Shown: positions 23,182-26,690, numbered from the stretch's first letter. The stretch: 33,104 bases of DNA from a virus (IMGVR_UViG_2563366897_000003), one strand, 5' to 3'. Notes: generated by a model from the letters alone, not told the origin. Program-made: numbers and translations.

Positions 23182-23364
23182 CACGTTATCAGGCCACCGC
23201 GTTGGCCTGACTGATTTCTTAATGAAAGGAACTGATTTATGGGATTGTTTACGACCCGCCAGTTACTCGGTTATGAGACGACAATAACTCAGTCCGCCTG
23301 GCGCCGATTATTCTGGCCGGTTTTGTAACCTGAGTGTCATTTACATGATCCAACAGGAAATGGC

Positions 23365-24864
23365 GTGACGCTCAATACTTCTCAGGTCAGTTACTATATG
23401 ACTCAGCGTAAGAAAGGTATAACTCAGCATATCTCGGCCATGAAGGCTGGTATCTCAGTCCGTTCTGGTCGTCGGATCGAAAAAGGAGAGTGGGCAAAAA
23501 ACAGTGTTCGGCACTGGCGCACACGCAAAGATCCTCTGGAAGCTGTGTGGGACAGCATGCTTGTTCCTCTGTTGAAAGAGAGGCCGGCTCTGACACCAAC
23601 AACTCTGCTGGAGATGCTACAGGATAAATATCCCGGCCAGTACCCCAACAGCCTTCGAAGAACAATGCAACGGCGGGTCCGCGAATGGAAGCTACAGTAT
23701 GGTGCAGAGCAGGAGGTCATGTTCCGCCAGCGACATCAGCCCGGTCTGCGAGGTCTGTCGGACTTTACTGAACTGAAAGGTGTAGTTGTCACCATCGCCG
23801 GTAAGTTGTTGGCGCATAAGTTGTATCACTTCCGTCTGGAATGGAGCCACTGGAGCTGGATGCGGGTTGTGCTGGGTGGTGAGAGCTTCTCTGCTCTGGC
23901 TGAAGGTCTGCAGGAAGCCCTCGGACAACTGGGCGGAGTGCCGGTAGAACATAAAACGGACAGCCTGAGGGCAGCATGGAAACAACAGGGCGAAGATGGA
24001 CGCCGCGAGCTGACTGAGCGTTATGCTGCTCTCTGTCAGCACTACGGAATGCAGGGCGTACACAATAATGCCGGTCGGGGCCACGAAAATGGCTCGGTTG
24101 AAAGTGCCCACGGACATCTGAAAAGGCGTATCTGTCAGGCGCTGATACTGCGGGGCAGTAACGACTTCAGCACCATAGAAGAATATCAGGCCTTCATCAC
24201 TCAGCAGGTTATGCGGCACAACCGTAACAATCAGGATCTGGTCAAGGAAGAACGTCTTCATCTGAAACCGCTGCCGCTTCGTCGCAGTGCTGACTATGAT
24301 GAGCTGACTGTGAGGGTTAGCCGCAGCAGTACCATCAATGTGAAGCACGTCGTCTACAGCGTACCTTCCCGGCTTGTAGGTCAACTGTTACGGGTCCGGT
24401 TATGGGACGATCGTCTGAGCTGTTACGTTGGCAGCAGCGAGGTCATGAGCTGCCCACGTGTCAGACCAGAAAAAGGGAAGACGCGGGCCCGTCGTATCGA
24501 CTTCCGACATGTGATCGACAGTCTGGCAAAAAAGCCCGGTGCGTTCTGCCATGCAACGCTGAGAAATGACATCCTGCCAGACGATGAATGGCGGAGGCTG
24601 TGGCGTCGCTTATGTAATCATCTGGAACCCGACATGGCAGGCAGGCTGATGGTACATGCTCTGAAACTGGCTGCAGGATACGACGATATCTCAGTCGTGG
24701 CAAAAGGTATGGAGCAGATGCTGAATACCCCGGGAAACGTGGATCTGCACCGGCTGATGCGCTTCCTGGGTATAAAGGAAAAGGCGTTGCCGGTAGTCAA
24801 TGTGAAACAGCATAACCTGAGCAGTTATGAGCAACTACTGCGTGGCAAGGGAGGTTCGCAGTGA
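23365..24864 (+). CDS. istA: IS21-family transposase IstA
   Basis: 499 aa per track (GTG start; alternative ATG at 23398); N-terminal HTH then DDE-type integrase region; followed by istB with 4-nt overlap. Confidence 0.8.
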   Translation: MTLNTSQVSYYMTQRKKGITQHISAMKAGISVRSGRRIEKGEWAKNSVRHWRTRKDPLEAVWDSMLVPLLKERPALTPTTLLEMLQDKYPGQYPNSLRRTMQRRVREWKLQYGAEQEVMFRQRHQPGLRGLSDFTELKGVVVTIAGKLLAHKLYHFRLEWSHWSWMRVVLGGESFSALAEGLQEALGQLGGVPVEHKTDSLRAAWKQQGEDGRRELTERYAALCQHYGMQGVHNNAGRGHENGSVESAHGHLKRRICQALILRGSNDFSTIEEYQAFITQQVMRHNRNNQDLVKEERLHLKPLPLRRSADYDELTVRVSRSSTINVKHVVYSVPSRLVGQLLRVRLWDDRLSCYVGSSEVMSCPRVRPEKGKTRARRIDFRHVIDSLAKKPGAFCHATLRNDILPDDEWRRLWRRLCNHLEPDMAGRLMVHALKLAAGYDDISVVAKGMEQMLNTPGNVDLHRLMRFLGIKEKALPVVNVKQHNLSSYEQLLRGKGGSQ

Positions 24865-25616
24865 GCAATATCCATCACCTTGAACGCAGCCTGCGTAAAC
24901 TACGCCTGACACGAGTTGGAGCTGAATGGCACGCTCTGGAAAAACGAGCACTGGCAGAAGGCTGGACACCATCGCGCTATCTTCTGACGCTATGCAATGA
25001 AGAACTCCTGTGGCGCGAGAGTGAAAAACTGCGTCGTTATAAAAAGGAGGCCCGGTTGCCAGTTGCCAAAACGCTAAGCGAATACGACTTCAGTCAGGTG
25101 CCGGAACTGAATGGAGCTCAGTTCCGGCAACTCTGTGAAACGACAGACTGGGTTGATGCAGGAGAAAACGTTCTGCTGTTCGGAGCCAGCGGGTTGGGGA
25201 AAAGCCATCTGGCGGCAGCGATCGTGGATGGCGTAGTAGGCCAGGGCTACCGGGCCCGGTTCTACAGCGCAGGAGAGTTGTTGCAGGAACTACGTAAAGC
25301 CAGAGCGCAGTTGAAACTGAATGAGCTGCTACTGAAACTGGATCGCTACCGGGTGATAGTGGTGGATGATCTTGGCTATGTCAAACGCGACAGCGCCGAA
25401 ACGGGAGTACTGTTCGAGTTAATAGCGCATCGCTATGAACGTGGGAGCCTGGTGATAACCAGTAACCATCCGTTCAGCATGTGGGGCAGCATCTTCGTGG
25501 ATGAGACTATGGCGGTGGCGGCGGCAGACCGGCTGATCCATCACGGATATATGTTCGAACTGAAAGGTGAAAGCTACAGGAAAAAGACAGCGAAGGCAGT
25601 AACAAGCGCGACTTGA
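24861..25616 (+). CDS. istB: IS21-family ATP-binding helper protein IstB
   Basis: 251 aa; Walker A GASGLGKSHLA and Walker B VIVVDDLG typical of IstB/DnaC-like AAA+ proteins. Confidence 0.85.
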   Translation: MSNIHHLERSLRKLRLTRVGAEWHALEKRALAEGWTPSRYLLTLCNEELLWRESEKLRRYKKEARLPVAKTLSEYDFSQVPELNGAQFRQLCETTDWVDAGENVLLFGASGLGKSHLAAAIVDGVVGQGYRARFYSAGELLQELRKARAQLKLNELLLKLDRYRVIVVDDLGYVKRDSAETGVLFELIAHRYERGSLVITSNHPFSMWGSIFVDETMAVAAADRLIHHGYMFELKGESYRKKTAKAVTSAT

Positions 25617-26690
25617 TGTCGCACTGAAGGGGGCGGCCAGTATAGTTGGCGCGAGTCGGCAAAACTAGTTGACGTCTAATACTCGGTTATACCGAACAAA
25701 AAGTGAAATTCCGTGCGCTGTTTCTGGAGCTGTTTTTCCGCCGTACGGTGAATTTCCACACCGAAGAGGTGATGCTGGACAAAATTACCGGAAAAACGCC
25801 GGTGGCGGCCTATGTCTCCCCGATCGTTGAAGGAAAAGTGCTTCGCCATCGCGGTGGTGAAACCCGCGTGTTACGTCCGGGCTACGTCAAGCCCAAACAC
25901 GAATTTAATTACCAGCAGGCGGTTGAGCGCCTTCCTGGTGAAGATCCGGCTCAGCTGAACGACCCGGCCTACCGTCGTCTGCGTATCATTACCGATAACC
26001 TCAAACAGGAAGAGCACGCCATTGTCCAGGTGGAAGAAATGCAGGCGGTGAATGCCGTGCTGTATGGCAAATACACCATGGAAGGGGATCAGTTTGATAC
26101 TGTCGAGGTGGATTTCGGGCGCTCTGAAGGAAATAACATTGAGCAGGCTGACGGTAAAAAATGGTCTGAGCAGGACCGTGATACGTTTGATCCGACGCAT
26201 GATATTGACCTCTACTGCGATCAGGCCAGCGGCCTTGTGAATATCGCCATTATGGACGGTACGGTCTGGCGTCTGCTGAATGGCTTTAAGCTGTTCCGCG
26301 AAAAACTGGATACCCGTCGCGGCTCAAATTCACAACTCGAAACGGCAGTGAAAGACCTGGGGGCGGTGGTGTCCTTCAAGGGGTATTACGGCGATCTGGC
26401 CATTGTGGTGGCGAAAACGTCTTATGTGGCAGAGGACGGTACCGAAAAACGTTATCTGCCGGAGGGCACACTGGTCCTGGGGAATACGGCAGCAGAGGGC
26501 ATTCGTTGCTATGGTGCCATTCAGGATGCGCAGGCGTTGTCCGAAGGTGTGGTGGCCTCTTCCCGTTATCCGAAACACTGGCTGACCGTGGGCGATCCGG
26601 CCCGTGAATTCACCATGACGCAGTCCGCACCGCTGATGGTGCTGCCGGATCCGGATGAGTTTGTGGTGGTACAGGTGAAATAATCCGTGA

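What the first reader, a model, noticed from the sequence alone, without database searches (positions are those of the whole stretch)
23265..25690. IS21-family element inactivating the major capsid gene, with a 10-bp flanking direct repeat
Seen: the gpE reading frame is split after about 12 codons by a 2.4-kb element encoding IstA (HTH plus transposase) and IstB (Walker A/B ATPase), flanked by identical ACTCGGTTAT copies; joining the flanks with one repeat copy restores an uninterrupted gpE N-terminus that aligns with lambda. Established: IS21-family elements generate short target duplications, usually shorter than 10 bp as far as I recall. Inference: the prophage cannot make capsids unless the IS excises precisely, so it is likely cryptic; the repeat length is at or beyond the upper end of what I would expect for this family.
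Basis: partly seen in the sequence, partly recalled or inferred. Interest (0 to 1): 0.45.

Follow-up and report, generated by a model that had tools for sequence, protein, structure and literature searches.

The report
ISEc10 insertion splitting prophage capsid gene
A known, intact copy of the E. coli insertion sequence ISEc10 has landed in codon 11/12 of a lambda-like prophage's major capsid gene with an ordinary 6-bp target duplication; the apparent 10-bp repeat is partly the element's own tips, so this is a routine case of a prophage being knocked out by a mobile element.

Summary
A 2.4-kb IS21-family element with istA and istB splits a lambda gpE-type major capsid gene near codon 12. ACTCGGTTAT occurs at 23265-23274 and 25681-25690, and the identity is in fact 11 bp.

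The element is ISEc10, 100% identical to many other copies. In 21 other copies from unrelated sites the conserved element always starts with TAT and ends with ATA. It therefore spans 23272-25681 (2410 bp) and reaches into both repeat copies. The true duplication is 6 bp (CTCGGT). That is the commonest length for ISEc10: 13 of 17 independent sites that have a flush exact repeat. The other five matching bases are target bases (TA and TAT) that happen to equal the IS tips, which is expected at about 6 in 10,000 sites.

The empty site is 100% identical in many E. coli genomes. The same junctions occur in independent assemblies, so this is not an assembly artefact.

The capsid gene is very probably non-functional. 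The 5' stump encodes a 29-aa peptide, and the 3' part has no usable start. Whether the prophage was otherwise viable was not tested.

This is ordinary, already-known biology.

The parts
23239..23271 (+). 5' stump of the gpE-type major capsid gene (codons 1-11, MGLFTTRQLLG). Its ribosome-binding site AAAGGAA lies just upstream. Read into the IS, it gives a 29-aa peptide ending at the TAA at 23326-23328.
   Evidence: the uninterrupted allele is 100% identical in other genomes
23266..23271 (.). Left copy of the true 6-bp target-site duplication, CTCGGT
   Evidence: the only exact repeat flush against both conserved IS tips; the empty site has one copy
23272..25681 (+). ISEc10 (IS21 family), 2410 bp, tips TAT...ATA, in the same orientation as the capsid gene
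   Evidence: PGAP names; covered 1-2410 in all 40 plasmid copies listed, the first 15 at 100% identity and the rest at 99.9%; termini defined by 21 copies in different contexts
23272..23321 (+). Left terminal inverted repeat. It is imperfect: 11 of 13 bases match at the tip and 34 of 50 overall against the right end. It contains a -10-like GACAAT at 23280-23285.
23365..24864 (+). istA, the IS21-family transposase (499 aa, GTG start)
   Evidence: NF033546 at 227 bits against a cut-off of 160; PF22483 Mu-transposase C-terminal domain; PGAP WP_000174402.1
24861..25616 (+). istB, the AAA+ helper ATPase (251 aa). Its GTG start overlaps the istA stop (GTGA).
   Evidence: NF038214 at 266.7 bits against a cut-off of 200; PF01695 at E = 9.5e-62; overlap seen
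25632..25681 (+). Right terminal inverted repeat. It contains a -35-like TTGACG at 25669-25674 and an in-frame TGA at 25670-25672 that closes the capsid frame from upstream.
25682..25687 (.). Right copy of the 6-bp target-site duplication, CTCGGT
25688..26683 (+). 3' part of the capsid gene (codon 12 to the stop), cut off from its start codon and ribosome-binding site. The first canonical in-frame start is GTG at 25703, with no Shine-Dalgarno motif. PGAP annotates a CDS from the ATA at 25679.

Best explanation
An intact, active-type copy of ISEc10 transposed into a lambdoid prophage that sits between potB and potC of an E. coli chromosome. ISEc10 belongs to the IS21 family, with an IstA DDE transposase and an IstB AAA+ helper. 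The insertion lies between codons 11 and 12 of the gpE-type major capsid gene, and staggered target cuts 6 bp apart produced the duplication CTCGGT. The target happened to read TA-CTCGGT-TAT, and the IS tips are TAT...ATA, so the flanking identity looks like 10-11 bp. The insertion separates the capsid start codon and ribosome-binding site from 331 of the 342 codons. The stump makes a 29-aa peptide, and the remainder has no usable translation start. On induction the prophage should therefore make no major capsid protein and hence no proheads or infectious particles (inferred). The disrupted allele is inherited in a clonal lineage. Shown: the element's identity, its ends, the duplication length, the empty site, and the occurrence in independent assemblies. 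Inferred: loss of capsid production and the defective-prophage phenotype.
For: ISEc10 identity: PGAP names it, all 40 listed plasmid copies cover 1-2410 at 99.9-100% identity, and both proteins exceed the NCBIfam IS21 cut-offs. Ends and duplication: 21 copies all carry TAT and ATA tips whatever the flank, the base after ATA varies, and 13 independent sites have an exact flush 6-bp repeat, including this one. Empty site: the 600-bp reconstruction with one copy is 100% identical over its full length in all 15 genomes listed, and 1863 genomes cover at least 80% of it. An IS-free prophage is 99.8% identical over the remaining 22.6 kb. Not an artefact: identical junctions occur in GCA_964049875.1 and in an ENA metagenome contig that begins inside the IS, and the truncated product is on record in 115 blocks of the collection. 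Inactivation: the 5' stump gives a 29-aa peptide; a TGA at 25670 lies upstream of the 3' part, and the first canonical start, GTG 25703, has no Shine-Dalgarno motif; the Pfam capsid profile begins at residue 5, so the break is inside the conserved domain. The intact allele is the capsid protein of a deposited phage whose listed host is E. coli C. Coincidence rate: TA-N6-TAT sites are 38 of 61,376 positions in the IS-free window.
Against: No expression or induction data exist. A low level of N-terminally truncated capsid from GTG 25703 or a non-canonical start cannot be excluded from sequence alone. PGAP does annotate a 334-aa CDS from ATA 25679. A few ISEc10 sites have 7-, 8- or 4-bp repeats, so 6 bp is the commonest length, not an invariant one. 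The ISfinder reference entry could not be consulted.
Confidence: 0.9

Rival explanations
1. One reading: the IS is GAGACG...TCTAA(T), and transposition made a true 10- or 11-bp target duplication, unusually long for the IS21 family.
For: The 10/11-bp identity is real, and the empty site alone cannot say which repeated bases belong to the IS.
Against: All 21 other copies, in unrelated chromosomal and plasmid contexts, keep TAT before GAGACG and A after TCTAAT. Repeats flush against those tips are 6 bp in 13 independent sites. No site shows a repeat consistent with the shorter IS. A 2410-bp query that includes the tips is covered 1-2410 in all 40 plasmids listed. TAT and ATA also extend the inverted repeat (TATGAGACG versus TATTAGACG).
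Confidence: 0.02
2. Assembly artefact: the capsid gene is intact in the real genome, and a repeat-induced misassembly placed the IS there.
For: IS copies are a classic cause of misjoins, and only 1 of 5426 complete RefSeq E. coli genomes shows the insertion.
Against: Both junctions carry a clean duplication of the element's usual length. An independent chromosome assembly, GCA_964049875.1, has zero mismatches over 8981 bp spanning both junctions. A metagenome contig starts inside the IS and runs into the capsid gene. The truncated product is listed in 115 blocks, and the 334-aa PGAP version is on 19 contigs.
Confidence: 0.02
3. The insertion is real, but it is not what makes the prophage defective, or the prophage is not defective. 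Either the prophage was already cryptic through other lesions, or it still yields particles through reversion by deletion between the 11-bp repeats, or through capsid protein supplied by another lambdoid prophage.
For: PGAP flags other pseudogenes in this prophage: a frameshifted Cro/CI-family gene, partial ydfR, and partial tail-fibre assembly genes. The fortuitous 11-bp direct repeat gives more homology for slippage deletion than a 6-bp duplication would (inference from general knowledge of deletions between short repeats). The chromosome has one further place that matches either the IS end or the capsid gene.
Against: int, xis, the Q-like antiterminator, lysis genes, terminase, portal, protease, decoration and tail genes are all annotated as intact. 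The IS-free prophage is widespread at 99.8% identity, and related phages with the identical capsid protein have been deposited as phages. That suggests the type is viable and that the IS is the decisive lesion. The disrupted allele is stably inherited across many assemblies.
Confidence: 0.2

Closest known systems
ISEc10 (IS21 family) as annotated by NCBI PGAP in E. coli, Shigella, Klebsiella and Salmonella chromosomes and plasmids
   Same: The full 2410 bp is covered in all 40 plasmid copies listed, the first 15 at 100% identity. IstA (WP_000174402.1) and IstB (WP_000065240.1) are the same proteins. The tips are the same, and the 6-bp duplication is the commonest length. ISEc10 is known to transpose in the laboratory in CFT073 (PMC7482066).
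   Different: Nothing in the element itself. Only the insertion site, the capsid gene of a potB/potC lambdoid prophage, is specific to this lineage.
IS21 and IS5376, the studied prototypes of the family (PMC10122671, PMC11208146)
   Same: The two-gene istA-istB layout with overlapping stop and start, long imperfect terminal inverted repeats, a short target duplication from staggered cuts, and a -35-like hexamer near the right tip with a -10-like hexamer near the left tip.
   Different: The prototypes end in a terminal CA and make 5-bp repeats (IS5376). ISEc10 ends in TA on both transferred strands and mostly makes 6-bp repeats. IstA is 499 aa against about 400 aa, and it found no solved-structure relative by sequence.
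Bacteriophage lambda gpE major capsid protein (PDB 7vi9; Pfam PF03864)
   Same: The rejoined protein aligns 1-341 to 1-340 with lambda gpE at E = 2.6e-135, and it sits in the same gene order: portal, protease, decoration protein, capsid, FI.
   Different: About 61% identity to a lambda-named phage record (Lambda_ev203) by tblastn, 88% to Gifsy-1, and 100% to Escherichia phage PhiR12_2_star. In this window the gene is interrupted.

Membership tests
IS21 family of insertion sequences | Encodes an IstA-type DDE transposase | tested here: met
   NCBIfam NF033546 transpos_IS21 (equivalog) at 227 bits against a cut-off of 160, residues 12-304
IS21 family of insertion sequences | Encodes an IstB-type AAA+ helper ATPase immediately downstream of istA | tested here: met
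   NF038214 at 266.7 bits against a cut-off of 200; PF01695 at E = 9.5e-62; the GTG start overlaps the istA TGA
IS21 family of insertion sequences | Long imperfect terminal inverted repeats with repeated transposase-binding units (L1/L2, R1/R2) | tested here: inconclusive
   The inverted repeat is present: 11 of 13 at the tips and 34 of 50 ungapped. No internal repeated units were resolved by k-mer search.
IS21 family of insertion sequences | Short target-site duplication (5 bp for IS5376 and numerous members according to PMC11208146; a 4-8 bp range for the family is from my memory) | tested here: met
   6 bp here and at 12 other independent ISEc10 sites; 7, 8 or 4 bp at four others
IS21 family of insertion sequences | Terminal 3'-CA dinucleotide (typical of many members, not a defining feature of the family) | tested here: not met
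   The tips are TAT...ATA in all 22 copies. On the left end a CA lies two bases in (…CATA-3' on the transferred strand); the right end has none. Family membership rests on IstA and IstB homology, so this is a variation and not an exclusion.
ISEc10 (named element) | Near-identity over the full length to elements carrying that name | tested here: met
   The first 15 plasmid copies listed are 100% identical over 2410 bp, and PGAP's 'ISEc10 family' names apply to both genes. Direct comparison with the ISfinder reference entry is not possible with these tools.
Lambda gpE-type major capsid protein (Pfam PF03864) | Full-length match to the family profile after removal of the insertion | tested here: met
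   PF03864 at 225.5 bits, profile positions 1-329 of 329, residues 5-341; PDB 7vi9 at E = 2.6e-135

The most novel reading that the evidence does not exclude
The target bases happen to extend the 6-bp duplication to an 11-bp direct repeat. Slippage or recombination between the two 11-mers, which would restore the capsid gene exactly, might therefore be frequent enough for this lineage to throw off revertant, particle-producing lysogens. That would make the IS a leaky, reversible lock on the prophage rather than a permanent knockout.
Probability: 0.05. Interest if true: 0.35.

Novelty: already known. Interest (0 to 1): 0.08.

Why it matters
It matters little beyond housekeeping. The work corrects an apparent anomaly: a 10-bp duplication for an IS21-family element is really a normal 6-bp one. 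It gives the ends, length (2410 bp) and usual duplication size of ISEc10 from 22 copies. It shows that this prophage's capsid gene is broken even though RefSeq annotates it as an intact CDS with an ATA start. For prophage-prediction or induction studies of this lineage, the prophage should be scored as defective for particle formation.

Tried and rejected
1. I considered whether the C that follows ATA in the first 11 chromosomal copies belongs to the IS, which would make the duplication 5 bp. I rejected this after the plasmid copies showed G, A and T at that position.
2. I looked for a target preference for IS-tip-like bases next to the duplication. The base 5' of the duplication is A in about 5 of 16 sites, and the base 3' is T in 4 of 16. 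Both are at chance level.
3. A scan of GTDB species-representative genomes for the left end found one hit only, at a contig end, which was useless for measuring duplications.
4. The literature gave no duplication length for ISEc10. A search for the PhiR12 phages' source paper found nothing relevant.
5. I looked for a hybrid outward promoter across the right junction into the capsid gene. The consensus scan found none. The -35-like TTGACG in the right end has no -10 partner in the flank at a 16-18-bp spacing (my reading of the sequence).
6. I tried to decide whether the host chromosome has a second E-type capsid gene. It has one further place that matches either the last 141 bp of the IS or the capsid gene, and the tools do not show which.
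7. IstA had no sequence-detectable relative among solved structures.

Full report
**What is in the sequence.**
The window carries the late region of a lambdoid prophage. The gene order is terminase, portal (19710-21302), S49 protease (21292-22797), head decoration protein (22834-23181), then a gpE-type major capsid gene that starts at ATG 23239. After MGLFTTRQLLG the frame runs into a 2.4-kb element that carries two genes on the same strand. These are istA (23365-24864, 499 aa) and istB (24861-25616, 251 aa, whose GTG start overlaps the istA TGA). The capsid frame resumes after the element and runs to the stop at 26681-26683.

ACTCGGTTAT occurs exactly twice in the window, at 23265-23274 and 25681-25690. 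The identity extends one base further left, giving an 11-mer TACTCGGTTAT. The one small correction is the start coordinate of the gene.

**Identity of the element.**
A megablast search against 5,426 complete E. coli genomes finds the element in hundreds of genomes. It is annotated there as 'IS21-like element ISEc10 family transposase' and 'helper ATPase IstB'.
- IstA exceeds the NCBIfam IS21 transposase cut-off (227 bits against 160).
- IstB exceeds the IS21 helper cut-off (266.7 bits against 200) and matches Pfam IstB_IS21.
- A query of 23272-25681 is covered 1-2410 in all 40 plasmid copies listed. The first 15 are 100% identical and the rest 99.9%.

This is an unaltered ISEc10, an element reported to transpose in E. 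coli CFT073 under laboratory selection (PMC7482066).

**Where the element really ends.**
I fetched 21 further copies, 11 chromosomal and 10 plasmid, and lined up their junctions.
- Every copy is 2410 bp.
- Every copy has TAT in front of GAGACG, and A after CGTCTAAT, whatever the flanking DNA is.
- The next base on the right is C, G, A or T in different copies, so it belongs to the target.
- TAT and ATA also extend the inverted repeat: TATGAGACGACAA against TATTAGACGTCAA. That is 11 of 13 at the tips and 34 of 50 over the first 50 bases.

The element in the window is therefore 23272-25681. It reaches three bases into the left copy of the 'repeat' and one base into the right copy. Counted on the 11-mer, the IS supplies two bases of the right copy.

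**True target duplication.**
With those ends, the only exact repeat flush against both tips in the window is CTCGGT (23266-23271 and 25682-25687). The independent sites compare as follows:

| Flush exact repeat | Independent sites |
|---|---|
| 6 bp | 13 (including this window) |
| 7 bp | 2 |
| 8 bp | 1 |
| 4 bp | 1 |
| none (probably recombinant copies) | 2 |

Six base pairs is thus the normal duplication for ISEc10. It lies within what is reported for the family: 5 bp for IS5376 and 'numerous IS21 members' (PMC10122671, PMC11208146).

The extra five identical bases arise because the target read TA-CTCGGT-TAT while the IS tips read TAT...ATA. In the IS-free window the pattern TA-N6-TAT occupies 38 of 61,376 positions, about 6 in 10,000, so this is a modest coincidence. 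Other insertion sites show no preference for tip-like bases next to the duplication.

**Empty site and reality of the insertion.**
Deleting 2416 bp gives a 600-bp reconstruction that is 100% identical over its full length in all 15 E. coli genomes listed, including IAI39. In all, 1,863 genomes cover at least 80% of it. A 25-kb stretch of the prophage is 99.8% identical, apart from the IS, in the other genomes listed. In all, 165 genomes (one of them the IS carrier itself) cover at least 80% of it.

Only one complete RefSeq genome, JNEC-KY173, carries the insertion. However, the exact truncated capsid product is on record in 115 blocks of the large assembly collection. Two examples:
- The chromosome of GCA_964049875.1 has zero mismatches over 8,981 bp spanning both junctions.
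- A metagenome contig begins inside the IS and runs into the capsid gene.

. The PGAP-style 334-aa product is on 19 contigs. The insertion is real and marks a clonal lineage. It is not an assembly artefact.

**Consequence for the capsid gene.**
The rejoined 342-aa protein:
- matches the entire Pfam Phage_cap_E profile from residue 5;
- aligns end to end with the solved lambda capsid protein (7vi9, E = 2.6e-135);
- is 100% identical to the capsid protein of the deposited Escherichia phage PhiR12_2_star, whose listed host is E. coli C.

In the window, the start codon and ribosome-binding site now drive a 29-aa peptide that ends in the IS. Upstream of the 3' part, an in-frame TGA at 25670 closes the frame. 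The first canonical start is GTG 25703 (codon 17), preceded by GAACAAAAA with no Shine-Dalgarno motif. The consensus scan finds no outward promoter at the right junction. Late transcription in lambdoid phages is antiterminated and should pass through the IS in any case (established knowledge of lambda Q).

I infer, with high but not complete confidence, that no functional major capsid protein is made. Induction would then give lysis without proheads or infectious particles. PGAP's intact-looking 334-aa 'major capsid protein' starts at an ATA codon (25679) made of the last three bases of the IS. I regard that as an annotation workaround.

**Is the prophage otherwise alive?**
It lies between potB and potC. 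It has integrase, excisionase, a cI-like repressor ORF, a Q-like antiterminator, lysis genes and a complete-looking head and tail module. PGAP flags a few other pseudogenes, among them a Cro/CI-family gene with a frameshift near its 3' end. I did not test whether these matter. Related phages that share about 64% of the late region at about 94% identity exist as deposited phage genomes. The statement 'cryptic because of the IS' is therefore plausible but unproven.

Reversion is possible in principle by deletion between the direct repeats, and the fortuitous 11-bp identity would favour it over a plain 6-bp duplication (inference). Complementation by another prophage could not be excluded.

**Comparison with what is known, and verdict.**
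- The element is ISEc10 itself.
- The family features tested are met: IstA, IstB, overlapping genes, imperfect long inverted repeats and a short duplication.
- The exception is the terminal CA typical of the prototypes, which ISEc10 replaces with TA. That is a property of all copies and not of this one.
- IS insertions into prophage structural genes are commonplace. Two other ISEc10 copies I fetched sit in a phage portal gene and a phage tail gene.

Nothing here is new in kind. The one unusual-looking feature, the long repeat, is explained.

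Noticed in passing
window 25679-26683: RefSeq/PGAP annotates the truncated capsid gene as an intact 334-aa 'major capsid protein' (WP_032150906.1), not as a pseudogene. It uses an ATA start codon formed by the last three bases of ISEc10. Nineteen contigs in public collections carry this product.
   Followed up: partly
L003, L007, L010, L016 (junctions of other ISEc10 copies): ISEc10 target duplications are not uniform. They are 6 bp at 13 independent sites, 7 bp at two, 8 bp at one and 4 bp at one. 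Two copies (L002, L005) have no matching flanks and are probably recombinants.
   Followed up: partly
window 25669-25674 and 23280-23285: A -35-like TTGACG lies 7 bp from the right tip, and a -10-like GACAAT lies 8 bp from the left tip.
   Followed up: no
window 693-1331 (-) and 1421-1664 (+): A 212-aa cI-like ORF (HTH plus LexA/S24-like C-terminus) is annotated by PGAP only as a 112-aa 'LexA family protein'. The divergent Cro/CI-family gene is flagged as frameshifted near its 3' end, where it overlaps a ydaT-like gene.
   Followed up: no
window 5291-5466, 9408-9597, 8459-8534, 8635-8709: The prophage carries a hok/sok module (Rfam sok, 112 bits), an STnc100 sRNA (132 bits) and two tRNA genes. 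The tRNA with anticodon CAT is called Met by ARAGORN but Ile by PGAP. The other is tRNA-Arg (TCT).
   Followed up: no
L008 (phage portal gene), L002 (phage tail gene), H11: Other ISEc10 copies also interrupt prophage morphogenesis genes (portal, tail) in unrelated E. coli genomes. This may only reflect tolerance of insertions in prophages.
   Followed up: no
L013 positions 22-55: The only exact ISEc10 left end among the GTDB species-representative genomes lies at the end of a 20-kb contig binned as 'uncultured Collinsella sp.'. An enterobacterial IS in an actinobacterial MAG suggests a binning error.
   Followed up: no
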